A DNA stretch of 64,000 nucleotides. Source: Escherichia coli (GTDB lineage: Bacteria; Pseudomonadota; Gammaproteobacteria; Enterobacterales; Enterobacteriaceae). Position numbers and translations under genes: made by a program. Positions 26,851-57,233 of this stretch are shown one piece after another (the stretch's first letter is position 1; each line of letters begins with the position of its first letter). Under the pieces are notes generated by a model that saw nothing but the letters and a program-made list of their open reading frames with translations, was not told the DNA's origin and did no database searches. Where the stretch lies: NCBI RefSeq assembly GCF_013315695.1, contig NZ_CP054353.1; one strand, 5' to 3'.

Positions 26851-28276
26851 TAATGCCGATCAGTTAAGGATCAGTTGACCGATCCAGTGGCTGTGTAAGA
26901 ATCCGGAAACGCTCACTTGTTTCCGGATTTTTTTATGCACATTGGACAGGCTCTTGATCTGGTATCCCGTTACGATTCTCTGCGTAACCCACTGACTTCT
27001 CTGGGGGATTACCTCGACCCCGAACTCATCTCTCGTTGCCTTGCCGAATCAGGTACTGTAACGCTACGCAAGCGCCGTCTTCCCCTCGAAATGATGGTCT
27101 GGTGTATTGTTGGCATGGCGCTTGAGCGTAAAGAACCTCTTCACCAGATTGTGAATCGCCTGGACATCATGCTGCCGGGCAATCGCCCCTTCGTTGCCCC
27201 CAGTGCCGTTATTCAGGCCCGCCAGCGCCTGGGAAGTGAGGCTGTCCGCCGCGTGTTCACGAAAACAGCGCAGCTCTGGCATAACGCCACGCCGCATCCG
27301 CACTGGTGCGGCCTGACCCTGCTGGCCATCGATGGTGTGTTCTGGCGCACACCGGATACACCAGAGAACGATGCAGCCTTCCCCCGCCAGACACATGCCG
27401 GGAACCCGGCGCTCTACCCGCAGGTCAAAATGGTCTGCCAGATGGAACTGACCAGCCATCTGCTGACGGCTGCAGCCTTCGGCACGATGAAGAACAGCGA
27501 AAATGAGCTTGCTGAGCAACTTATAGAACAAACCGGCGATAACACTCTGACGTTAATGGATAAAGGTTATTACTCACTGGGACTGTTAAATGCCTGGAGC
27601 CTGGCGGGAGAACACCGCCACTGGATGATACCTCTCAGAAAGGGAGCGCAATATGAAGAGATCAGAAAACTGGGTAAAGGCGATCATCTGGTGAAGCTGA
27701 AAACCAGCCCGCAGGCACGAAAAAAGTGGCCGGGACTGGGAAATGAAGTGACAGCCCGCCTGCTGACCGTGACGCGCAAAGGAAAAGTCTGCCATCTGCT
27801 GACGTCGATGACGGACGCCATGCGCTTCCCCGGAGGAGAAATGGCGGATCTGTACAGTCATCGCTGGGAAATCGAACTGGGATACAGGGAGATAAAACAG
27901 ACGATGCAACTGAGCAGGCTGACGCTGAGAAGTAAAAAACCGGAGCTTGTGGAGCAAGAGCTGTGGGGTGTCTTACTGGCTTATAATCTGGTGAGATATC
28001 AGATGATTAAAATGGCGGAACATCTGAAAGGTTACTGGCCGAATCAACTGAGTTTCTCAGAATCATGCGGAATGGTGATGAGAATGCTGATGACATTGCA
28101 GGGCGCTTCACCGGGACGTATACCGGAGCTGATGCGCGATCTTGCAAGTATGGGACAACTTGTGAAATTACCGACAAGAAGGGAAAGGGCCTTCCCGAGA
28201 GTGGTAAAGGAGAGGCCCTGGAAATACCCCACAGCCCCGAAAAAGAGCCAGTCAGTTGCTTAACTGACTGGCATTA
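26851..28276 (+). mobile_element. Insertion sequence IS4 (1426 bp) with imperfect terminal inverted repeats
   Basis: Left end taatgccgatcagttaagg, right end gcttaactgactggcatta; single transposase ORF; length matches IS4; no flanking direct repeat. Confidence 0.9.
26935..28263 (+). CDS. insG: IS4 transposase (DDE)
   Basis: 442 aa from [14 protein letters not shown]; matches remembered IS4 transposase. Confidence 0.9.
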
Positions 28277-29474: not shown

Positions 29475-30146
29475 ATGCAGTACCCGATTAACGAGATGTT
29501 CCAGACCCTGCAAGGTGAGGGTTACTTTACCGGCGTCCCCGCCATTTTTATTCGTTTACAGGGATGTCCGGTCGGCTGTGCCTGGTGCGACACCAAACAC
29601 ACCTGGGAAAAGCTTGAGGATCGGGAAGTCTCCCTTTTCAGCATTCTGGCGAAGACCAAAGAGAGTGATAAGTGGGGGGCGGCGAGCAGTGAAGATTTGC
29701 TGGCTGTCATTGGTCGTCAGGGATACACCGCGCGGCATGTGGTGATTACGGGTGGTGAGCCTTGCATTCATGATTTGCTGCCACTGACTGACCTGCTCGA
29801 AAAGAACGGTTTTAGCTGCCAGATAGAAACCAGCGGCACTCACGAAGTACGTTGCACACCGAATACCTGGGTTACTGTTTCGCCAAAACTGAACATGCGC
29901 GGCGGCTATGAAGTGTTGTCACAGGCACTGGAGCGCGCTAACGAAATTAAACATCCTGTTGGGCGTGTTCGTGACATCGAAGCGCTGGATGAGCTATTAG
30001 CAACGCTGACCGATGATAAACCACGAGTCATTGCACTGCAGCCGATTAGCCAAAAGGATGATGCCACTCGTTTGTGCATTGAAACCTGCATTGCGCGTAA
30101 CTGGCGTTTGTCGATGCAAACACATAAATATCTAAATATTGCCTGA
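29475..30146 (+). CDS. queE: 7-carboxy-7-deazaguanine synthase (radical SAM, queuosine biosynthesis)
   Basis: 223 aa; radical-SAM Cys motif CPVGCAWCDT; matches remembered YgcF/QueE. Confidence 0.95.
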   Translation: MQYPINEMFQTLQGEGYFTGVPAIFIRLQGCPVGCAWCDTKHTWEKLEDREVSLFSILAKTKESDKWGAASSEDLLAVIGRQGYTARHVVITGGEPCIHDLLPLTDLLEKNGFSCQIETSGTHEVRCTPNTWVTVSPKLNMRGGYEVLSQALERANEIKHPVGRVRDIEALDELLATLTDDKPRVIALQPISQKDDATRLCIETCIARNWRLSMQTHKYLNIA

Positions 30147-30485
30147 TTAAACATTTATAAGCGTTATAAATGGGTGGAACCTGTAAAGACTTCTACTCAT
30201 TTATATTGTTTGTCGCCTCTGAAAACTCATCCATCTTGCCCATCCTGAACTAATCATTATCATTCTCTACAAATTCTGTGGCGTTAATTTTTCGCTGGAG
30301 TGAAAATTATTGCGGTAAAGTTTGGTAGATTTTAGTTTGTATAGAGTTATTTTAAATATTTACCTTTTTAATCAATGGATTAAGTGCTCTTTAACATAAT
30401 GGATGTGTTGTTTGTGTGATACTGTAAAGTTGGTAGATTGTGACTGGCTTAAAAAATCATTAATTAATAATAGGTTATGTTTAGA
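30147..30485 (+). promoter_or_regulatory. CRISPR leader (A/T-rich) of distal array
   Basis: A/T-rich 340 bp ending in motif agttggtagattgt shared with the cas-adjacent leader; immediately precedes first repeat. Confidence 0.6.
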
Positions 30486-31307
30486 GTGTTCCCCGCGCCA
30501 GCGGGGATAAACCAAATACAGGACCAATATTTTGATATATATAATCGTGTTCCCCGCGCCAGCGGGGATAAACCGGTGATTCTGGCAATACTGGCACTTC
30601 CGTTTTGGTGTTCCCCGCGCCAGCGGGGATAAACCGGGCGGTTAACTGGTCCTGTGCGGATATGCGCTGTGTTCCCCGCGCCAGCGGGGATAAACCGATG
30701 TGGAAAGGCGAGCTGAGGGTGGCCTACGCGTGTTCCCCGCGCCAGCGGGGATAAACCGGCTGAGGAAATTGCTAAACCCTCGCAGGATCCGTGTTCCCCG
30801 CGCCAGCGGGGATAAACCGTTGCCGGTACAGCTCCAGCATTAATCCCCACCGTGTTCCCCGCGCCAGCGGGGATAAACCGTTGCGACGTGGTGCGCGCTC
30901 GAGCACAACGTTGTGTTCCCCGCGCCAGCGGGGATAAACCGATGTAAACCCCTCGCGCATCGAGTCAAATGTCGTGTTCCCCGCGCCAGCGGGGATAAAC
31001 CGCCACCTCAGCCTGCGCGCCCGCTGAATATTCCGTGTTCCCCGCTCCAGCGGGGATAAACCGGGACGCGTTCCATCAGGGCGGGTCCAGGGAATGTGTT
31101 CCCCGCGCCAGCGGGGATAAACCGCAGGCGGCGCAGTGGCGCATGAATCCGTTCGCGTGTTCCCCGCGCCAGCGGGGATAAACCGGAGTTTGTGAATTTA
31201 ACAGAATTCCGCGCCCGGTGTTCCCCGCGCCAGCGGGGATAAACCAGCCAATTGCCATATATGCCATCGCCAGCAGCCGTGTTCCCCGCGCCAGCGGGGA
31301 TAAACCA
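30486..31307 (+). CRISPR. Type I-E CRISPR array, 14 repeats / 13 spacers (distal array between queE and ygcE)
   Basis: 29-bp repeat GTGTTCCCCGCGCCAGCGGGGATAAACCG at exact 61-bp period from 30486 to 31279; 32-bp unique spacers; repeat 10 has GCTCC variant; repeats 1, 13, 14 end in A. Confidence 0.97.
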
Positions 31308-31394
31308 CCATATAACCCGTTATCTCTTTCTCAAGTTTTTATATTAGCTGTACTTGTAATAAGCAACATATCCACATAACACCTCATGTTCAAA

Positions 31395-31425
31395 ATAGTT
31401 CCCCATGCCAGATAAGTTCACAATT
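31395..31425 (+). repeat. Degenerate fossil CRISPR repeat
   Basis: atagttccccatgccagataag resembles repeat with internal deletion, about two periods beyond last intact repeat. Confidence 0.4.
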
Positions 31426-31760
31426 ATCGATACAAAAAATCAAATTTAATCAAAGTGTTATTTGTATAATCCTTAAACCGTTAAGAAATTTTAATATATT
31501 ATTTTTTTAATATTAATTAATGCCTGTTAATTTTTTCTTTAGAATAACAGTGTATTTTTTAAGCTTGTTATTCATTGATTAAGTAATAAATCTGGAAGTT
31601 TGTCTTTGTTTTGAGGCTAATGAGTGGTTTTACATAACCGCCTCTATACGCTGTTGATGAATAGTTCTTATGAATAAAGATATCCAGTTCATACTTTAAG
31701 TGAAAATTGATAAAGTGCGATTCGTATTGTCTTTTATTCTAAAGACATCGAGTGTAGTTA

Positions 31761-31898
31761 ATATTCCTTGTAAAAACAGGGATAAACCGAACTAGTTAAA
31801 GTTTTTATTATGTTCCCTGCATCAGCGGGGATAAACCGGACTTGTTATCATTTTTTAAGTTGTCGAACTTATGTTCCCCGCGTCAGCGGGGATAACCA
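31761..31898 (+). CRISPR. Degenerate CRISPR mini-array (3 decayed repeats)
   Basis: atattccttgtaaaaacagggataaaccg / atgttccctgcatcagcggggataaaccg / atgttccccgcgtcagcggggataacc; last two 61 bp apart; abuts ygcE 3' end. Confidence 0.7.
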
Positions 31899-31944
31899 TT
31901 CAGGTATGTTCAGGCCGGGCAGTTTCCCGCCCGGCCTTCCTCAC

Positions 31945-47796: not shown

Positions 47797-47906
47797 GCGA
47801 GCAGCATTCCTGATTTTAAACGTGAACGTCGTTGGAAGAATTAACAGGTATAGAATGGCGTTGGGTGCTTGAGGCTGTCTGGCGTTAAGCATTCGCGAGG
47901 TTCCAG

Positions 47907-48008
47907 ATGGACAAAAGCCCCAGGCGATATTTCTATCAACCTGAGGCCAGCGTTCGAACCCAAACAATTCGAATGTTAGTCTCTTCTTTGCAGGGAGGCA
48001 AGACATGC
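47907..48008 (+). CDS. mok-like leader ORF translationally coupled to hok-like toxin
   Basis: 33-codon ORF ([34 protein letters not shown]) whose stop overlaps the toxin start (ATGcTGA). Confidence 0.4.
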
Positions 48009-48157
48009 TGACAAAATATGCCCTTGTGGCAATCATAGTGCTGTGTTTTACAGTACTGGGATTCACGCTGATGGTAGGCGACTCGTTGTGTGAGTTGAGT
48101 ATCAGAGAACGTGGTATGGAGTTTAAGGCGGTTCTCGCTTACGAATCGAAGAAGTAG
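48005..48157 (+). CDS. Hok/Gef-family type I toxin (50 aa)
   Basis: [50 protein letters not shown]; single TM helix then conserved SLCE...AYES periplasmic motif; RBS agggagg 7 nt upstream; below 60-aa cutoff of ORF track. Confidence 0.8.
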
Positions 48158-48351: not shown

Positions 48352-51051
48352 ATGCGTAAATATCCTTTAAGTTTACTGAAGGATAAAAATATTGTGACTT
48401 TTTTTGATTTCTGGGGAAAAACCCGACGCGGCGAGAAAGACGGGGGCGACGACTATCACCTTCTTTGCTGGCATTCGCTGGATGTAGCCGCGATGGGCTA
48501 TTTAATGGTTAAAAGCAATTGCTTCGGACTGGCTGACTATTTTCGTCAATTAGGTTTCGCTGACACGGAGCTGGCAGCACAATTTTTCGCCTGGCTGCTG
48601 TGCTGGCACGATATTGGAAAATTTGCCCGCTCTTTTCAGCAACTTTACCTGCACCCACAACTCAAGGTTCCGGAAGGCGCAAGAAAGAATTACGAAAAGA
48701 TCTCTCATTCAACGCTGGGCTACTGGTTGTGGAACCATTATTTAAGTGAATGTCAGGAGTTGCTTCCTTCATCTTCACTCTCTCCGCGCAAACTTAAACG
48801 GGTGATGGAGATGTGGATGCCCATGACTACCGGGCATCATGGTCGACCCCCTGAGCGTATGGATGAACTGGATAATTTTCTGCCTGAAGACAAAGGTGCC
48901 GCACGAGATTTTCTCCTTGCAATCAAGGTACTGTTTCCGCTCATAGAGATCCCCACATTCTGGGATGATGACGAGGGCGTTGAACTTATAAAACAACTTT
49001 CCTGGTATATCTCTGCAACCGTCGTACTTGCAGACTGGACGGGATCGTCAACGCGATATTTTCCACGCGTCGCACAGACAATGGATATTGAAGATTACTG
49101 GCAGAAAACTTTAGTTCAGGCTCAAAACGCCTTAACCGTCTTTCCTCCAAAAGCAGAAAGCGCGCCTTTCACCGGAATTAATACGCTGTTTCCTTTTATT
49201 GAGAATCCGACACCGCTACAGCAAAAGGTGCTGGATCTGGATATCAGCCAGCCGGGACCACAGTTATTTATTCTGGAGGATGTAACCGGCGCAGGTAAAA
49301 CAGAAGCGGCGCTTATCCTGGCGCACAGGTTGATGGCTGCGGGGAAAGCGCAGGGTTTGTTTTTTGGCCTGCCAACAATGGCAACGGCCAATGCCATGTA
49401 CGATCGACTGGTCAAAACCTGGCTTGCTTTCTATTCGCCAGAGTCCCGCCCCAGCCTGGTGCTGGCACACAGTGCCCGAACATTAATGGACCGCTTTAAT
49501 GAATCACTCTGGTCCGGTGATTTAGTCGGGTCAGAAGAACCGGATGAACAAACGTTCAGTCAGGGATGTGCGGCCTGGTTTGCCGACAGTAACAAGAAGG
49601 CGCTACTGGCTGAAATTGGCGTCGGCACGCTGGATCAGGCGATGATGGCTGTGATGCCGTTCAAACATAATAATCTGCGGCTTCTGGGACTGAGTAACAA
49701 AATCCTGCTGGCTGATGAGATCCATGCCTGTGACGCTTACATGTCATGCATTCTTGAAGGGCTGATCGAGCGGCAGGCGCGTGGCGGAAACAGCGTCATT
49801 TTGCTTTCTGCCACGTTATCTCAACAGCAGCGCGACAAACTCGTTGCTGCCTTTGCGCGTGGTATAGAGGGCCAGCAAGAAGCTCCGTTCCTGGAAAAGG
49901 ATGATTACCCCTGGCTGACGCACGTTACGAAATCCGATGTGCATTCACACCGGGTAGCGACGCGCAAAGACGTTGAGCGCAGCGTGAGTGTGGGTTGGCT
50001 TCATAGCGAACAAGAGTGTATTGCGCGTATCGAATCGGCGGTAAGTCAGGGGAAATGTATCGCCTGGATCCGAAATTCTGTCGATGACGCCATCCAGGTT
50101 CATCGTCAGTTACTTGCCCGCGGCGTCATTCCTGCTTCCAGCCTTTCACTTTTTCATAGCCGCTTTGCTTTTAGCGATCGCCAGCGAATTGAAACGGAGA
50201 CGCTGGCACGCTTTGGTAAAGAAGACTGTTCACAGCGTGCCGGAAAAGTCCTCATTTGTACTCAAGTCCTGGAGCAGAGCGTTGACTGCGACCTGGACGA
50301 AATGATTTCCGACCTTGCCCCTGTTGATTTACTGATCCAGCGAGCAGGGCGATTACAGCGACATATCCGCGATATGAATGGCCAGTTAAAGCGTGACGGT
50401 AAAGACGAGCGTCACCCTCCTGAATTGCTGATTCTGGCCCCCGTCTGGGACGACTCTCCGGGTGACGAATGGTTTGGCAGTGCCATGCGTAACAGTGCAT
50501 TTGTCTATCCCGATCATGGGCGAATCTGGCTGACGCAGCGTGTGCTGCGTGAGCAAGGTGCTATTCAGATGCCACACTCAGCCCGGCTTCTGATTGAATC
50601 AGTCTACGGTGAGGACGTAGTAATGCCGGAAGGGTTTGCCCGCAGCGAGCAGGAGCAAGTGGGCAAATATTACTGCGATCGCGCAATGGCTAAAAAGTTT
50701 GTACTGAACTTCAGGCCCGGCTATGCCGCCAATATCAACGATTACCTCCCGGAAAAACTGTCGACACGTCTGGCTGAAGAGTCTGTTTCCCTGTGGCTGG
50801 CTACCTGTATTGACGGTGTGGTGAAGCCTTATGCCACAGGTGCACACGCATGGGAAATGAGCGTTGTCAGAGTGCGCCGAAGCTGGTGGAAAAAACATCG
50901 GGATGAGTTTGCTTTACTGGAAGGGGATGCGTTCAGGCAGTGGTGCGTTGAACAGCGGCATGATCCGGAGATGGCAAACGTGATTTTAGTCACCGATGAC
51001 GAAAGTTGTGGGTATTCGGCTACGGAGGGATTGATTGGCAAGGTTGGTTGA
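48352..51051 (+). CDS. cas3: Cas3 HD-nuclease/helicase (type I signature protein)
   Basis: 899-aa ORF; HD motif LCWHDIGKF; helicase motif I TGAGKTEA, motif II DEIHA; position upstream of cse1; start codon uncertain. Confidence 0.9.
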   Translation: MRKYPLSLLKDKNIVTFFDFWGKTRRGEKDGGDDYHLLCWHSLDVAAMGYLMVKSNCFGLADYFRQLGFADTELAAQFFAWLLCWHDIGKFARSFQQLYLHPQLKVPEGARKNYEKISHSTLGYWLWNHYLSECQELLPSSSLSPRKLKRVMEMWMPMTTGHHGRPPERMDELDNFLPEDKGAARDFLLAIKVLFPLIEIPTFWDDDEGVELIKQLSWYISATVVLADWTGSSTRYFPRVAQTMDIEDYWQKTLVQAQNALTVFPPKAESAPFTGINTLFPFIENPTPLQQKVLDLDISQPGPQLFILEDVTGAGKTEAALILAHRLMAAGKAQGLFFGLPTMATANAMYDRLVKTWLAFYSPESRPSLVLAHSARTLMDRFNESLWSGDLVGSEEPDEQTFSQGCAAWFADSNKKALLAEIGVGTLDQAMMAVMPFKHNNLRLLGLSNKILLADEIHACDAYMSCILEGLIERQARGGNSVILLSATLSQQQRDKLVAAFARGIEGQQEAPFLEKDDYPWLTHVTKSDVHSHRVATRKDVERSVSVGWLHSEQECIARIESAVSQGKCIAWIRNSVDDAIQVHRQLLARGVIPASSLSLFHSRFAFSDRQRIETETLARFGKEDCSQRAGKVLICTQVLEQSVDCDLDEMISDLAPVDLLIQRAGRLQRHIRDMNGQLKRDGKDERHPPELLILAPVWDDSPGDEWFGSAMRNSAFVYPDHGRIWLTQRVLREQGAIQMPHSARLLIESVYGEDVVMPEGFARSEQEQVGKYYCDRAMAKKFVLNFRPGYAANINDYLPEKLSTRLAEESVSLWLATCIDGVVKPYATGAHAWEMSVVRVRRSWWKKHRDEFALLEGDAFRQWCVEQRHDPEMANVILVTDDESCGYSATEGLIGKVG

Positions 51052-51140
51052 GATGTCTGCGACAGGATTCTCTGAATAGTTGATACACAAAAAAGGATGG
51101 ACAACCGACCAGGGATGGTCTTTTTTACGAGAGGATGCGT

Positions 51141-52703
51141 ATGAACTCGTTTTCACTTCTGACAACCCCGTGGTTGCCTGTTCGTTTCAAAGACGGAACG
51201 ACAGGCAAGCTGGCATCAGTCGATCTGGCTGATGAGAATGTTGTCGATATCGCCGCACCGCGAGCAGATTTACAAGGTGCGGCCTGGCAGTTTTTGCTGG
51301 GACTACTACAAACCAGCTTCGCGCCAAAAGATCATCGTCGTTGGGATGATATCTGGGAAGACGGACTGGAAGCTGAAAAGCTACGAGAAGCATTGCTGTC
51401 TTTAGAACATGCTTTCCAGTTTGGGCCTGATTCATCTTCATTTATGCAGGATTTTGAGGCGCTCACGGGAGATAAAGTTCCGGTCGCTTCGCTACTGCCT
51501 GAGATTCCCGGCTCTCAAACGACGAAGTTTAATAAAGACCATTTTATCAAGCGGGGTGTAACGGAATATCTGTGCCCCCATTGCTTAGCATTGGCCTTGT
51601 TCTCTTTACAGTTGAATGCACCCGCGGGCGGCAAAGGCTATCGCACCGGTTTACGCGGCGGTGGGCCGATGACGACTCTCATTGAATTACAGGAATATCA
51701 GGGCAATCAACAAACACCCTTGTGGCGCAAACTGTGGCTCAACGTGATGCCGCAGGATGAAGCCGACTTACCGCTACCCAAAAAATTTGACGATCTGATT
51801 TTCCCCTGGCTAGGCCCGACGCGTACCAGCGAACTGGCCGGTGCGGTGGTAACCCATGATCAGGTCAATAAACTCCAGGCGTACTGGGGAATGCCGCGGC
51901 GTATACGTATTGATTTTAATACCACGACAGTCGGCAACTGCGATATTTGCGACGAGCAGAACGACGCGCTCCTGAGCCTGATGACGACCAAAAATTATGG
52001 TGCCAATTATGCCATGTGGCAGCATCCCTTAACGCCTTACCGTGTACCACTTAAAGAGGGTGGCGAGTTTTACTCCGTTAAACCACAACCGGGCGGTTTA
52101 ATCTGGCGCGACTGGTTAGGCCTTATCGAAACGGGTAAATCAGAAAACAATACGGAACTTCCCGCGCTGGTGGTGAAACTCTTTAATGCCAGCAGTCTGA
52201 AACAGGCAAAAGTGGGCCTATGGGGATTTGGTTATGATTTTGACAACATGAAAGCGCGCTGTTGGTACGAACACCATTTCCCGCTACTGCTCAATAAAAA
52301 AGAAGGCCAGATACCGAAGCTGCGGCTGGCTGCGCAAACGGCTTCACGGATTCTGAGTCTGTTACGGAGTGCATTGAAAGAAGCATGGTTCTCCGATCCA
52401 AAAGGTGCAAGGGGTGATTTCAGTTTTGTGGATATCGACTTCTGGAACAAAACTCAGCATCGCTTCCTGAGGTTAGTGCGCCAAATTGAAGAAGGTCAGG
52501 ATGCGGATGAATTACTCGGCAAATGGCAAAAGGAAATTTGGTTATTCGCGCGTCAGGATTTTGACGAGCGTGTATTCACTAATCCTTATGAGCCCGTTGA
52601 TTTGAAACGCGTCATGACCGCGCGCAAGAAATATTTTACAACATCGGCGGAGAAGCAAAGTGCTAAAGCCGCCAGGGAGAAAAAGCAGGAGGCTGCTGAA
52701 TGA
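51141..52703 (+). CDS. casA: Cascade large subunit Cse1 (CasA)
   Basis: About 520 aa; first gene of Cascade operon after cas3; RBS gagagga before ATG 51141 (alternative ATG 51135). Confidence 0.85.
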   Translation: MNSFSLLTTPWLPVRFKDGTTGKLASVDLADENVVDIAAPRADLQGAAWQFLLGLLQTSFAPKDHRRWDDIWEDGLEAEKLREALLSLEHAFQFGPDSSSFMQDFEALTGDKVPVASLLPEIPGSQTTKFNKDHFIKRGVTEYLCPHCLALALFSLQLNAPAGGKGYRTGLRGGGPMTTLIELQEYQGNQQTPLWRKLWLNVMPQDEADLPLPKKFDDLIFPWLGPTRTSELAGAVVTHDQVNKLQAYWGMPRRIRIDFNTTTVGNCDICDEQNDALLSLMTTKNYGANYAMWQHPLTPYRVPLKEGGEFYSVKPQPGGLIWRDWLGLIETGKSENNTELPALVVKLFNASSLKQAKVGLWGFGYDFDNMKARCWYEHHFPLLLNKKEGQIPKLRLAAQTASRILSLLRSALKEAWFSDPKGARGDFSFVDIDFWNKTQHRFLRLVRQIEEGQDADELLGKWQKEIWLFARQDFDERVFTNPYEPVDLKRVMTARKKYFTTSAEKQSAKAAREKKQEAAE

Positions 52704-53236
52704 GTATTGTAAAAGAGGAGCACAAAGCCACGCTGCGTAAATGGCACGAAGAGTTGCAGGAAAAACGCGGCAATCGTGCCAGTCTGCGGCGTAGCACAAC
52801 GGTTAATGATGTTTGTCTGTCAGAAGGTTTTCGTTCTCTGCTGATGCAGACCCACACGTTGTGGAAAATTGAATCACAGGAGTGGCGTTTTACCGCACTG
52901 GCGCTGGTTGCCGCCGTTGCCGCCAATGTAAAAGCCATTGATGAACGGCAGCCTTTTGCCGCGCAGTTGGCGGCGGTAATGTCTGAGGGGCGTTTTACTC
53001 GCCTGTCGGCAGTCAAAACGCCGGATGAATTACTGCGCCAGTTACGTCGCGCGGTCAAATTATTAAATGGTTCCGTCAATCTTATCTCTTTGGCAGACGA
53101 TATTTTCCGCTGGTGCCAGGAGAGTGACGACCTGCTCAATCATCACCGCCGCCAGCAGCGGCCAACAGAATTTATCCGTATCCGCTGGGCGCTGGAATAT
53201 TACCAGGCTGGCGACGCCGATAACGAACAAAATTAA
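52700..53236 (+). CDS. casB: Cascade small subunit Cse2 (CasB)
   Basis: 178 aa; ATGA overlap with casA stop; position between cse1 and cas7e. Confidence 0.8.
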   Translation: MSIVKEEHKATLRKWHEELQEKRGNRASLRRSTTVNDVCLSEGFRSLLMQTHTLWKIESQEWRFTALALVAAVAANVKAIDERQPFAAQLAAVMSEGRFTRLSAVKTPDELLRQLRRAVKLLNGSVNLISLADDIFRWCQESDDLLNHHRRQQRPTEFIRIRWALEYYQAGDADNEQN

Positions 53237-53250
53237 TAAAGGACTATCTC

Positions 53251-54306
53251 ATGACGACATTTATTCAGCTTCATTTGTTAACCGCTTACCCTGCTGCCAA
53301 CCTTAACCGTGATGACACCGGTGCGCCAAAAACTGTGGTACTGGGTGGAGCAACGCGTCTGCGCGTTTCCTCGCAAAGTCTGAAACGTGCGTGGCGCACT
53401 TCTGCACTTTTTGAACAGGCGCTGGCGGGCCATATTGGTATTCGTAGTGGGCGTATCGCGCGCGAGGCAGCAACTATCATGATTGAGAAAGGAATCGAAG
53501 AAAAAAAAGCCATCGAATGGGCGGCAGATATTGCCGATTATCTTGGTAAAGCCAAAAAAGACAAAAAACCAAAAGATCCGCTCACTAACGCTGAAACTGA
53601 ACAGCTCGTCCATATCAGCCCGGCAGAATTTGACGCCGTAAAAGCGCTGGCCCATCAACTGGCAGAAGAAAAGCGCGCGCCAAAAGAGGACGATCTCGCT
53701 TTGTTACGTAAAGATCGTATGGCGGTAGATATCGCCATGTTTGGTCGTATGCTGGCGAATAAACCCGAGTTTAATGTTGAAGCCGCCTGTCAGGTCGCGC
53801 ACGCGTTTGGTGTCAGTGAAACGATTGTCGAAGATGATTTTTTCACCGCCGTTGATGATTTGCGCCAGGCCTCTGAAGATGCTGGTGCAGGGCATCTTGG
53901 TGAAACTGGATTTGGTTCTGCGCTGTTCTACACCTATATCTGCATTGATAAAGATCTGCTGGTCGAAAACCTCGGCGGTGACGAAGCATTAGCTAATCAG
54001 ACCCTGCGCGCCTTTACGGAAGCAGCGTTTAAAGTTTCCCCAACCGGTAAACAAAACAGCTTTGCCAGCCGTGCCTACGCCTCCTGGGCGCTGGCAGAAA
54101 AAGGCACCGAACAACCGCGTTCTCTGGCGGCGGCTTTCTATGAACCCATTAATGGCACACGTCAGTTAGATGTGGCGGTGCAGCGTATTACAACGCTTCG
54201 CGAAAACATGAATACGGTTTACGAACAGAAGACCGAATGCGCAAGTTTTGACGTGATGAACAAACAGGGAAGCATGAAGGACGTGCTGGACTTTATCTGC
54301 GCGTAA
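53251..54306 (+). CDS. casC: Cascade backbone subunit Cas7e (CasC)
   Basis: 351 aa; N-terminus MTTFIQLHLLTAYPAANLNRDDTGAPK typical of Cas7e. Confidence 0.9.
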   Translation: MTTFIQLHLLTAYPAANLNRDDTGAPKTVVLGGATRLRVSSQSLKRAWRTSALFEQALAGHIGIRSGRIAREAATIMIEKGIEEKKAIEWAADIADYLGKAKKDKKPKDPLTNAETEQLVHISPAEFDAVKALAHQLAEEKRAPKEDDLALLRKDRMAVDIAMFGRMLANKPEFNVEAACQVAHAFGVSETIVEDDFFTAVDDLRQASEDAGAGHLGETGFGSALFYTYICIDKDLLVENLGGDEALANQTLRAFTEAAFKVSPTGKQNSFASRAYASWALAEKGTEQPRSLAAAFYEPINGTRQLDVAVQRITTLRENMNTVYEQKTECASFDVMNKQGSMKDVLDFICA

Positions 54307-54316
54307 GGGGCGGCTT

Positions 54317-55063
54317 ATGAGCCAATATCTGATTTTTCAGCTTCATGGGCCAATGGCATCCTGGGGCGTTGATGCACCCGGTGAGGTGCGTCATACCCAT
54401 GAACTGCCTTCGCGTTCAGCATTGCTGGGGCTGCTGGCTGCCGGGGTAGGGATACGGCGTGATGACACCGAATGCTTAAACGCGTTTAATCGCCACTATT
54501 CACTGGTGGTTTGCGCCAGCCGTAACCCGCGCTGGGCACGGGATTATCACACGGTCCAGATGCCAAAAGAGGTGCGTAAAGCGCGTTATTTCAGCCGTCG
54601 CGAAGAGTTGAGCGACCCTGATCTTCTAAGCGCGATTATCTCCCGGCGCGACTACTACACCGATGCCTGGTGGATGGTGGCCGTGGCAACAACAGCTGAT
54701 GCGCCTTACAGCCTCGAACAGTTGCAGGAAGGTTTACGCCATCCGGCTTTTCCGCTTTATCTGGGGCGAAAAAGCCATCCGCTGGCATTACCCCTTGCGC
54801 CGTTACTGCTTGAAGGTAACGCGTCTGATGCCTTACGTAACGCATACCAACAGTATCAGGATCGTTTCCACGAACTGAAAGTCTCACTCCCGAAACTTCA
54901 GGATGAATGCTGGTGGGAAGGGGAGCACGATGGCCTGGTCTCGAGCAAAATATTACGCCGCCGGGATGTTCCTTTAAATCGTCAGCAGTGGCTGTTTGGG
55001 GAACGCACCGTCAATCAGGGGCCGTGGCTCAGCAAGGAGGAACCATGTACCTCTCAAGAATAA
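54317..55063 (+). CDS. casD: Cascade subunit Cas5e (CasD)
   Basis: 248 aa; N-terminus MSQYLIFQLHGPMASWG...LLGLLAAGVGIRRDD typical of Cas5e. Confidence 0.9.
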   Translation: MSQYLIFQLHGPMASWGVDAPGEVRHTHELPSRSALLGLLAAGVGIRRDDTECLNAFNRHYSLVVCASRNPRWARDYHTVQMPKEVRKARYFSRREELSDPDLLSAIISRRDYYTDAWWMVAVATTADAPYSLEQLQEGLRHPAFPLYLGRKSHPLALPLAPLLLEGNASDALRNAYQQYQDRFHELKVSLPKLQDECWWEGEHDGLVSSKILRRRDVPLNRQQWLFGERTVNQGPWLSKEEPCTSQE

Positions 55064-55691
55064 CCTTACATACCGGTCAGCTTTCGCCTGCGCAGTTGCT
55101 GCATTTGGTGGATCGCGGTGAATATGTGATGCATCAGTGGCTGTGGGATCTTTTTCCTGGCGGCAAAGAAAGGCAATTTCTTTATCGTCGGGAAGAACTC
55201 CAGGGCGCGTTTCGCTTTTTTGTCCTGTCGCAGGAACGCCCGGCGGAAAGTGAAACGTTCACCATCGAATGCCGGTCATTTGCGCCTGAACTGCATACCG
55301 GACAATCCCTTTGTTTCAACCTGCGGGCGAATCCAACAGTCTGTAAAGCGGGTAAGCGCCACGATCTGCTGATGGAGGCGAAACGGCAGGTGAGGGGGCA
55401 GGCGGAAGGAAGAAATGTCTGGTTGCATCAACAACAGGCGGCGCTGGACTGGCTGGCAGCGCAGGGGGAGAGAAGCGGTTTTACACTGCTGGATACCTCG
55501 GTCGATGCCTACCGACAACAGCAACTGCGGCGGGAAAACTCCCGGCAACTGATCCAGTTCAGTAGCGTGGATTATACGGGGATGCTTACGGTCACCGATC
55601 CTGGGTTATTTCTGCAACGTCTGAGCCAGGGGTATGGCAAAAGCCGGGCGTTCGGTTGTGGTCTGATGCTGATCAAACCTGGAGCAGAGGC

Positions 55692-55695
<4 letters not shown>
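55045..55695 (+). CDS. casE: crRNA endoribonuclease Cas6e (CasE)
   Basis: 216 aa from MYLSRITLHTGQ after AGGAGG RBS; C-terminal Gly-rich loop GYGKSRAFGCGLM; overlaps casD 3' end. Confidence 0.85.
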
Positions 55696-56905
<1,210 letters not shown>

Positions 56906-57001: not shown

Positions 57002-57212
57002 GTGTTCCCCGCGCCAGCGGGGATAAACCGGCTGGGTACTAGCCAGGGTGAAAGGAAGTCACGTGTTCCCCGCGCCAGCGGGGATAAACCGTCGACAATG
57101 GATAAGTTGACTTCAGGTCTGGGGAGTTCCCCGCGCTAGCGGGAATAAACCGTGCAGTACGCCTGATGACAAACCAGGCATCGGGAGTTCCCCCGCGTCA
57201 GCGGGGAACTCC
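57002..57212 (+). CRISPR. Type I-E CRISPR array adjacent to cas2, 4 repeats / 3 spacers
   Basis: Repeats at 57002, 57063, 57124, 57185 (61-bp period); repeats 3 and 4 degenerate; spacers gctgggtactagccagggtgaaaggaagtcac, tcgacaatggataagttgacttcaggtctggg, tgcagtacgcctgatgacaaaccaggcatcgg. Confidence 0.9.
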
Positions 57213-57233
57213 CAGCTCCCATTTTCAAACCCA

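What the first reader, a model, noticed from the sequence alone, without database searches (positions are those of the whole stretch)
30486..31307. 13-spacer distal type I-E array: spacer targets unknown, possible self or prophage matches
Fourteen near-identical 29-bp repeats with 32-bp spacers lie downstream of an A/T-rich leader next to queE. The array is far larger than the 3-spacer array next to cas1-cas2, although both leaders share the agttggtagattgt motif. Spacer content can reveal past phage or plasmid encounters or self-targeting. I could not detect matches to the rest of the window by eye. Repeat 10 carries a GCGCC to GCTCC change that would weaken the crRNA hairpin stem.
Basis: seen in the sequence. 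Interest (0 to 1): 0.45.

Follow-up and report, generated by a model that had tools for sequence, protein, structure and literature searches.

The report
E. coli CRISPR2.3 array, prophage memory
This is the ordinary second CRISPR array of an Escherichia coli type I-E immune system. It is an old, inherited record whose identifiable spacers come from temperate phages, plus one harmless copy of a piece of the bacterium's own abrB gene.

Summary
Fourteen 29-nt repeats and thirteen 32-nt spacers lie at 30486-31307, downstream of a 30%-GC leader beside queE. This is the known CRISPR2.3 array of the E. coli CRISPR-II locus (ygcF/queE-ygcE). RefSeq already annotates it as CRISPR in strain MSB1_4I, the only one of 5,426 complete genomes with the identical array.

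Five of 13 spacers now have sources:
- S01: phage neck gene, 32/32, flank ATA.
- S03: P2-like prophage portal gene, 32/32, flank ATG.
- S07: lambdoid tail-fibre gene, 31/32, flank ATG.
- S11: prophage recT, 30/32, flank ATG.
- S13 (trailer end): chromosomal gene abrB. It matches 32/32 in about 1,190 E. coli genomes and 31/32 in MSB1_4I itself, flank CCA.

So a self-match exists. C at PAM positions -3 and -2 is reported to block both interference and priming, so autoimmunity is not expected. S01-S12 have no other match in MSB1_4I, and no spacer matches the window.

Four related arrays keep the same spacer order and differ only by internal deletions. The array therefore looks like a decaying inherited memory, not an actively growing one.

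The repeat-10 change is real, but it lies in the hairpin tetraloop, not the stem (-15.2 to -13.9 kcal/mol, same fold). Eight spacers remain orphans. Ordinary, low novelty.

The parts
29475..30146 (+). queE (ygcF), the left flanking gene of the CRISPR-II locus
   Evidence: ORF of 223 aa. RefSeq annotates it as queE in the identical MSB1_4I sequence.
30147..30485 (+). A/T-rich leader of CRISPR2.3 (30% GC). It contains the motif AGTTGGTAGATTGT at 30428-30441, 58 nt before repeat 1.
   Evidence: The same motif lies at the same distance in the cas-adjacent leader (56944).
30486..31307 (+). CRISPR2.3 array: 14 repeats of 29 nt (type A, starting GTG) and 13 spacers of 32 nt
   Evidence: RefSeq annotates a 'CRISPR' direct_repeat feature at the same bases.
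30486..30546 (+). R1 (ends in A) plus S01. S01 matches a phage neck/tail-completion gene 32/32, flank ATA. The flank's -1 base (A) equals R1's last base.
   Evidence: IMG/VR contig UViG_2529293142_000021; phrog_27.
30637..30668 (+). S03: 32/32 match to the portal gene of a P2-like prophage, PAM ATG
   Evidence: Seven E. coli genomes (H90-H96); gene context; alignment.
30881..30912 (+). S07: 31/32 match (mismatch at position 8) to a lambdoid prophage tail-fibre gene, PAM ATG
   Evidence: (H114-H115).
31035..31063 (+). R10 with G12->T in the hairpin tetraloop (GCCA becomes TCCA)
   Evidence: The same variant precedes S10 in strains AF3 and MS 21-1.
31125..31156 (+). S11: 30/32 match (mismatches at positions 16 and 24) to recT of lambdoid prophages, PAM ATG; 29/32 to Salmonella phage SPN1S recT
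31218..31278 (+). R13 (ends in A) plus S13. S13 derives from chromosomal abrB: 32/32 with the allele of e.g. ST131, 31/32 with MSB1_4I's own abrB, flank CCA.
31279..31307 (+). R14, the terminal repeat (ends in A)
31761..31899 (+). CRISPR2.2 remnant: three degenerate repeats (10, 4 and 5 mismatches), 0.5 kb past the array
   Evidence: The two-array layout of the locus is described in PMC3903273.
31945..33423 (-). ygcE, the right flanking gene of the CRISPR-II locus
48352..56905 (+). Intact type I-E operon cas3-casA-casB-cas7e-cas5e-cas6e-cas1e-cas2e, which would serve this array in trans
   Evidence: ORFs. In RefSeq none of the eight genes is flagged as a pseudogene.
57002..57213 (+). cas-adjacent CRISPR2.1 array with 3 spacers; its last two repeats are degenerate

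Best explanation
This is the CRISPR2.3 array of the E. coli CRISPR-II locus, between queE/ygcF and ygcE. It is the cas-distal array of a type I-E system with type-A (O157-like) repeats.

How it most likely works (inferred from what is established for this family): it is transcribed rightward from the leader. Cas6e cuts the transcript at the base of each repeat hairpin into 61-nt crRNAs. The Cascade and Cas3 proteins encoded about 17 kb downstream (48352-56905) use those crRNAs.

What the spacers are (shown here): they are mainly a record of temperate phages. The sources found are a neck gene, a P2-like portal gene, a lambdoid tail-fibre gene and recT, with flanks ATA, ATG, ATG and ATG. The oldest spacer, S13, was copied from the chromosomal gene abrB.

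Why the self-match is tolerated (inferred): the abrB protospacer is flanked by CCA. That resembles the repeat's own CCG 'self' signal, so Cascade should neither cleave nor prime there.

State of the array (shown): it is an inherited memory that is shrinking. Relatives carry the same spacers in the same order, and they differ only by internal deletions. None has a leader-end spacer of its own.
For: Anatomy.

Locus identity: RefSeq annotation of the identical sequence. Published description of CRISPR-II with CRISPR2.3, and CRISPR2.2 0.5 kb away (PMC3903273).

Targets and flanks:
- S03 32/32 with ATG, S07 31/32 with ATG, S11 30/32 with ATG.
- S01 32/32 with ATA in a phage head-neck module.
- S13 32/32 to abrB in the >=99% identity class of 1,196 genomes. 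Only 7 records have a second place, i.e. an array copy.
- S13 is 31/32 in MSB1_4I with flank CCA and 32/32 with the same flank in an ST131 strain.

Last repeat base comes from the PAM: R1 and R13 end in A, matching the -1 base of their protospacers. This is the rule described in PMC3338789.

PAM behaviour in the literature:
- ATG is the typical PAM of arrays with type-A repeats (PMC3737337; PMC4678831).
- C at -3 or -2 blocks interference and priming (PMC4678831).
- ATA supports interference or priming, depending on the spacer.

Deletion-only evolution: the arrays of AF3, MS 21-1, AF14 and one metagenome contig fit a single ancestral order. S01-S02 at the leader end and S13 at the trailer end are kept in all of them.

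No self-match for S01-S12: only one place (the array) in MSB1_4I at E<=1, and no plasmid hits in any genome.
Against: - Eight of 13 spacers (S02, S04, S05, S06, S08, S09, S10, S12) have no identified source, so 'mainly temperate phages' rests on 4 spacers.
- There are no expression data. E. coli type I-E systems are generally reported as silent in the laboratory (PMC10910852), so transcription, processing and interference here are inferred, not shown.
- The PAM activity data come from the K-12 variant of Cascade, not from this type-A variant.
- The S07 target found has a mismatch at seed position 8 and would probably escape.
- The window differs from MSB1_4I by one spacer unit in the other array. 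MSB1_4I is therefore a near-identical proxy host, not provably the same isolate.
Confidence: 0.9

Rival explanations
1. S13 is a working self-targeting spacer. Its crRNA would guide Cascade to abrB and either cause autoimmunity or repress abrB, a CRISPRi-like regulatory role.
For: S13 matches abrB of MSB1_4I at 31/32, and the only mismatch is at non-seed position 19. All eight cas genes are intact. The spacer has been kept at the trailer end in every related array. The crRNA would pair with the coding strand of abrB.
Against: The flank is CCA, and C at -3 and -2 abolishes interference and priming in PAM screens (PMC4678831). Both abrB and the cas genes are intact, which is not the outcome expected from autoimmunity. 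Trailer-end spacers persist in E. coli arrays generally (PMC3903273), so its retention needs no function.
Confidence: 0.04
2. S13 was not taken from the cell's own chromosome. It came from incoming chromosomal DNA of another E. coli lineage, by conjugation or transduction, so it records foreign DNA that happens to be a core gene.
For: S13 is 32/32 with the abrB allele found in about 1,190 genomes, such as ST131. All five S13-carrying genomes listed have the T19 allele, which gives 31/32.
Against: S13 is the oldest spacer. The T19 (M234I) change is confined to 65 genomes and could simply have arisen after the spacer was acquired. The spacer's allele is the common state at that position. The two histories cannot be separated with these data.
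Confidence: 0.25
3. The array is currently active and still acquiring spacers, and its larger size than the cas-adjacent array reflects preferential recent uptake.
For: cas1e and cas2e are intact and the leader has its conserved motif. S01 and S03 match their phage targets perfectly.
Against: The two leader-proximal spacers are shared by all four related arrays. S01 is also found in the arrays of three further strains that share no other spacer with this array (H100-H102). All differences between relatives are internal losses. The size difference between the two arrays is explained by deletions, and MSB1_4I itself differs from the window by one unit in CRISPR2.1.
Confidence: 0.07

Closest known systems
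E. coli CRISPR2.3 array (CRISPR-II locus, ygcE-ygcF), type I-E, as in K-12 and O157:H7
   Same: Same chromosomal site, same leader type and the same 29-nt repeat consensus GWGTTCCCCGCGCCAGCGGGGATAAACCG. It also has the same 61-bp period, the CRISPR2.2 remnant 0.5 kb away, and cas genes at the separate iap-cysH locus.
   Different: The spacer set is specific to a lineage. The identical array is in 1 of 5,426 complete genomes, and partial versions are in four others listed. Repeats are type A (GTG) as in O157:H7, not type T (GAG) as in K-12.
Self-targeting spacers in E. coli genomes (about 10% of 1,014 genomes; PMC10910852)
   Same: A spacer whose sequence also occurs elsewhere in the same chromosome: S13 and abrB, 31/32.
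   Different: The target is a core gene, not a prophage. The flank is the inactive CCA. The spacer is the oldest in the array, and both the cas genes and the target are intact.
Prophage-directed spacer repertoires of E. coli CRISPR1 arrays (PMC10910852)
   Same: The identifiable targets are temperate phages or prophages found in other Enterobacteriaceae genomes, and not in the resident genome.
   Different: This is the CRISPR-II array, not CRISPR1. Only 4 of 13 spacers (31%) could be assigned to phages here, against 60% of spacer clusters with an identified target in that study.

Membership tests
Type I-E CRISPR array of E. coli (CRISPR2 repeat family) | 29-nt repeat matching GWGTTCCCCGCGCCAGCGGGGATAAACCG | tested here: met
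   Ten of 14 repeats are identical to the consensus with W=T. The other four differ by one base each. The consensus is taken from PMC3338789.
Type I-E CRISPR array of E. coli (CRISPR2 repeat family) | Unique spacers of 32-33 nt, giving a period of 61 bp | tested here: met
   All 13 spacers are 32 nt and all are different. The spacing is exactly 61 bp throughout.
Type I-E CRISPR array of E. coli (CRISPR2 repeat family) | The repeat folds into a stable stem-loop, the Cas6e substrate | tested here: met
   7-bp stem with a 4-nt loop, -15.2 kcal/mol, z = -3.2. R10 gives the same fold at -13.9 kcal/mol. Cleavage by Cas6e itself was not tested.
Type I-E CRISPR array of E. coli (CRISPR2 repeat family) | A/T-rich leader upstream, with elements shared with the cas-adjacent leader | tested here: met
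   30% GC. A 14-nt motif lies at the same 58-nt distance in both leaders.
Type I-E CRISPR array of E. coli (CRISPR2 repeat family) | Cognate type I-E cas genes in the genome | tested here: met
   cas3 through cas2e lie at 48352-56905, and none is flagged as a pseudogene.
Type I-E CRISPR array of E. coli (CRISPR2 repeat family) | Protospacers flanked 5' by AWG, with the last repeat base copied from PAM position -1 | tested here: met
   ATG flanks three of the five protospacers found. The two exceptions (ATA, CCA) are exactly the spacers preceded by repeats that end in A.
Type I-E CRISPR array of E. coli (CRISPR2 repeat family) | Transcription and processing into crRNAs, and interference in vivo | not testable with these tools
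   No expression data are available. The promoter-like scan of the leader gave no more sites than shuffled sequence (5 found against 3.7 expected).
CRISPR2.3 of the CRISPR-II locus | Located between ygcF (queE) and ygcE, with CRISPR2.2 about 0.5 kb away | tested here: met
   The locus definition is from PMC3903273.
Functional self-targeting spacer | The spacer matches a site elsewhere in the same genome | tested here: met
   S13 matches abrB at 31/32 at 3626051-3626082 of MSB1_4I. MSB1_4I is a proxy host.
Functional self-targeting spacer | The self protospacer carries a PAM that allows interference or priming | tested here: not met
   The flank is CCA, and C at -3 and -2 is reported as inactive (PMC4678831). 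That activity was measured in the K-12 variant, not in this one.

The most novel reading that the evidence does not exclude
S13 would be a natural, long-lived example of PAM-based self-tolerance. On this reading, a spacer copied from the core gene abrB survived because the chromosomal site carries CC at -3 and -2, which mimics the repeat's self-signal. The spacer may still let Cascade bind abrB weakly and modulate it. Alternatively, the lineage-specific abrB M234I change inside the protospacer could be a relic of past self-targeting pressure.
Probability: 0.05. Interest if true: 0.45.

Novelty: already known. Interest (0 to 1): 0.2.

Why it matters
Mostly this closes the question. The array is a textbook E. 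coli CRISPR2.3 locus that RefSeq already annotates.

The spacer analysis adds three modest points:
- It agrees with the recent view that E. coli type I-E spacers mainly record temperate phages that are absent from the carrying genome.
- It gives two clean natural examples of the rule that the last repeat base is copied from the PAM.
- It documents a core-gene-derived spacer that sits next to an inactive CCA flank, a small natural illustration of how self-derived spacers can persist.

The spacer order could serve as a typing marker for this lineage. The abrB allele shared with ST648-named strains hints that the lineage is ST648-related.

Tried and rejected
Searches that found no target:
- Rfam at gathering thresholds reported no CRISPR-DR family over the array. 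This is not informative for so short a repeat.
- blastn of all 13 spacers against 50,697 phage records found only S11 (recT). The other hits had E>=1 and were in unrelated hosts.
- Against 72,556 plasmid records, only S11 and S13 hit. The 'plasmid' records hit by S13 are 0.28-4.9 Mb, most of them chromosome-sized, and the hit lies in abrB where annotated.
- Exact 20-mer scans of IMG/VR found nothing for S02, S04, S05, S06, S08 and S12.
- The S09 20-mer hit (L013) does not extend beyond the 20-mer and has a CCG flank, so I treat it as chance.
- The S10 20-mer scan of GTDB genomes gave six hits in unrelated MAGs. All have only 22-24 of 32 bases matching, so they are chance.
- The S12 24-mer scan of metagenomes found only another copy of the same array.

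Ideas tested and rejected:
- S03 targets the resident P2-like prophage of MSB1_4I. Rejected: the portal genes are 52% identical, with 19/32 mismatches at the homologous site.
- The abrB T19 change is an escape mutation confined to S13 carriers. Rejected: 65 genomes have it, and most of them lack S13.
- The R10 mutation weakens the stem. Rejected.

Full report
**1. Observation**

The sequence at 30486-31307 holds 14 copies of the 29-nt repeat GTGTTCCCCGCGCCAGCGGGGATAAACCG. They are spaced exactly 61 bp apart, which gives 13 different 32-nt spacers. A search with the repeat pattern finds 17 matches in the window, against none in 100 shuffles. The three extra matches are the cas-adjacent array at 57002-57152.

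Repeats 1, 13 and 14 end in A instead of G.

The upstream intergenic region 30147-30485 is 30% GC, against 51% for the window. It follows a 223-aa ORF that RefSeq calls queE. The motif AGTTGGTAGATTGT occurs exactly twice in the window, each copy starting 58 nt before the first repeat of an array.

No spacer matches the rest of the window; the best ungapped match is 21/32.

**2. What it is**

The stretch 30150-31450 is 100% identical to E. coli MSB1_4I (NZ_LR898874.1, a rectal swab isolate from Australia). No other of 5,426 complete E. coli genomes has it; the rest match only through the repeats and flanks. RefSeq annotates the same bases as 'CRISPR', between queE and ygcE.

This is the CRISPR-II locus described by Almendros et al. 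It holds CRISPR2.3 with its leader, plus a CRISPR2.2 remnant 0.5 kb away (PMC3903273). The remnant is present here as three degenerate repeats at 31761-31899.

The eight type I-E cas genes, cas3 to cas2e, lie at 48352-56905, and none is flagged as a pseudogene. The repeats are of the 'A' type (GTG on this strand). The literature associates this type with the O157:H7-like cas variant (PMC3737337).

The window equals MSB1_4I over all 39.9 kb that I could compare, with one exception. The RefSeq record has one extra spacer-repeat unit in the cas-adjacent array. MSB1_4I is therefore a near-identical proxy for the host, not provably the same isolate.

**3. Spacer sources**

I searched the 13 spacers, joined end to end, against phage records, plasmid records and complete E. 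coli genomes. I then ran exact 20-24-mer scans of IMG/VR, GTDB genomes and metagenomes. Five spacers have clear sources.

| Spacer | Source | Identity | 5' flank |
|---|---|---|---|
| S01 | Neck/tail-completion gene (phrog_27) in the head-neck module of an IMG/VR viral contig | 32/32 | ATA |
| S03 | Portal gene of a P2-like prophage, in seven E. coli genomes | 32/32 | ATG |
| S07 | Lambdoid prophage tail-fibre gene | 31/32 (mismatch at 8) | ATG |
| S11 | recT of lambdoid prophages integrated next to guaA | 30/32 (mismatches at 16, 24) | ATG |
| S13 | Chromosomal gene abrB | 32/32 or 31/32 (see section 4) | CCA |

S11 also matches recT of Salmonella phage SPN1S at 29/32.

ATG is the PAM most often seen for spacers in type-A arrays (PMC3737337; PMC4678831).

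The two spacers with a non-G base at flank position -1 (S01 and S13) are exactly those preceded by repeats ending in A. This is what the rule 'the last repeat nucleotide is copied from the PAM' predicts (PMC3338789). It shows that these are genuine acquisition events and not chance similarities.

Eight spacers remain orphans: S02, S04, S05, S06, S08, S09, S10 and S12.

**4. The self-match**

S13 matches abrB in 5,420 of 5,426 genomes. It is 32/32 in the 1,196 genomes of the >=99% class, for example ST131. Only seven records have a second place, meaning an array copy of S13.

In MSB1_4I the match is 31/32, at 3626051-3626082, with the mismatch at position 19. That allele causes M234I (ATG->ATA) and occurs in 65 genomes, including strains named ST648. 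All five S13-bearing genomes listed have it, but most genomes with the allele lack S13. It is therefore a lineage polymorphism and not demonstrably an escape mutation.

The protospacer flank is CCA. Xue et al. found that C at -3 or -2 disrupts both interference and priming, and that the repeat's own CCG protects arrays from self-priming (PMC4678831). My inference is that S13 is a self-derived spacer tolerated because its chromosomal copy looks like 'self' to Cascade. Survivorship would explain why a self-derived spacer with such a flank is the one that persisted.

Whether S13 came from the cell's own chromosome or from incoming DNA of another E. coli cannot be decided with these data.

S01-S12 have no second match in MSB1_4I at E<=1, which corresponds to roughly three mismatches or fewer. 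They also match no plasmid of any genome in the collection.

The resident P2-like prophage of MSB1_4I is unrelated at the S03 site. Its portal gene is 52% identical to the target portal, with 19/32 mismatches at the homologous position.

**5. History of the array**

Strains AF3, MS 21-1 and AF14, and a metagenome contig, carry arrays with the same spacers in the same order, interleaved with others. All of them fit one ancestral order. All keep S01-S02 at the leader end and S13 at the trailer end.

Compared with those relatives, the window's array has lost spacers between S08 and S09 and between S12 and S13. No relative has a private leader-end spacer. S01 is also found in the arrays of three further strains that share no other spacer with this array (H100-H102).

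The array is thus inherited and is eroding by deletions between repeats. This fits the published picture of slow E. coli arrays that mostly record prophages (PMC10910852).

**6. Repeat 10**

The repeat folds into a 7-bp stem (positions 5-11 paired with 16-22) and a 4-nt loop (positions 12-15). G12->T changes the loop from GCCA to UCCA. The predicted structure is unchanged and the energy goes from -15.2 to -13.9 kcal/mol.

The same variant precedes S10 in AF3 and MS 21-1, so it is an old neutral marker.

**7. Mechanism and confidence**

Shown here:
- the anatomy of the array and its leader;
- the locus identity;
- intact cas genes;
- five spacer sources with their flanks;
- the pattern of deletion-only differences between relatives.

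Inferred from the established biology of type I-E systems:
- transcription from the leader;
- Cas6e processing into crRNAs;
- use of the crRNAs by Cascade and Cas3;
- silence of the abrB site.

No expression evidence is available. The simple promoter scan of the leader was no better than shuffled sequence.

**8. Verdict**

This is a correctly observed but ordinary and already annotated CRISPR2.3 array. The useful additions are the assignment of 5 of 13 spacers, a harmless self-derived spacer, and a correction of the repeat-10 interpretation.

Noticed in passing
window 57063-57092 (CRISPR2.1 array): The window is identical to NZ_LR898874.1 over about 39.9 kb compared. The exception is that the RefSeq record has one extra spacer-repeat unit (GATAACAAAGTTACGCCATCAGTTGAATATGT) between spacers 1 and 2 of the cas-adjacent array. 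The window therefore comes from a sibling or variant of MSB1_4I, and it shows a very recent one-unit difference.
   Followed up: partly
window 57092-57123 (CRISPR2.1 spacer 2): This spacer matches a DUF6651 head-module gene on phage-plasmids of about 95-115 kb that also carry terminase and major capsid genes. There are 234 plasmid places among E. coli genomes. The match is 29/32 in p.CT29-P1 with a canonical AAG PAM. The mismatches are at positions 6, 21 and 24, and 6 and 24 are positions that, to my recollection, Cascade does not base-pair.
   Followed up: partly
window 31761-31899: Three degenerate type I-E repeats (10, 4 and 5 mismatches) lie 0.5 kb past the array. This is the known CRISPR2.2 remnant, just before the 3' end of ygcE.
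   Followed up: yes
window 47863-48020 and the adjacent Hok CDS: A hok/sok toxin-antitoxin module lies between cysH and cas3 (Rfam sok at 111 bits; Hok/Gef CDS in RefSeq). It is a known variable feature of CRISPR-I arrangements.
   Followed up: no
window 26917-28263: An IS4-family transposase gene sits next to ygcG, about 1.2 kb upstream of queE.
   Followed up: no
window 57002-57213: The RefSeq feature table for MSB1_4I lists no CRISPR feature for the cas-adjacent array between cas2e and iap, although it annotates the distal array.
   Followed up: no
NZ_LR898874.1 3625363-3626409 (abrB; locus L011 864-1910): The abrB allele of this lineage has ATG->ATA (M234I) inside the S13 protospacer. It occurs in 65 of 5,426 genomes, including strains named ST648, which hints that the host belongs to an ST648-related lineage.
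   Followed up: partly
NZ_LR898874.1 about 3548000-3586210 (loci L022, L010): MSB1_4I has a resident P2-like prophage integrated next to a tRNA-Lys/Val cluster. No spacer of this array targets it.
   Followed up: yes
locus L008 (MS 21-1 array), repeat 16: Another repeat ends in a non-G base (…ACCC) before its spacer. This is a further candidate example of a spacer taken from a non-canonical PAM.
   Followed up: no
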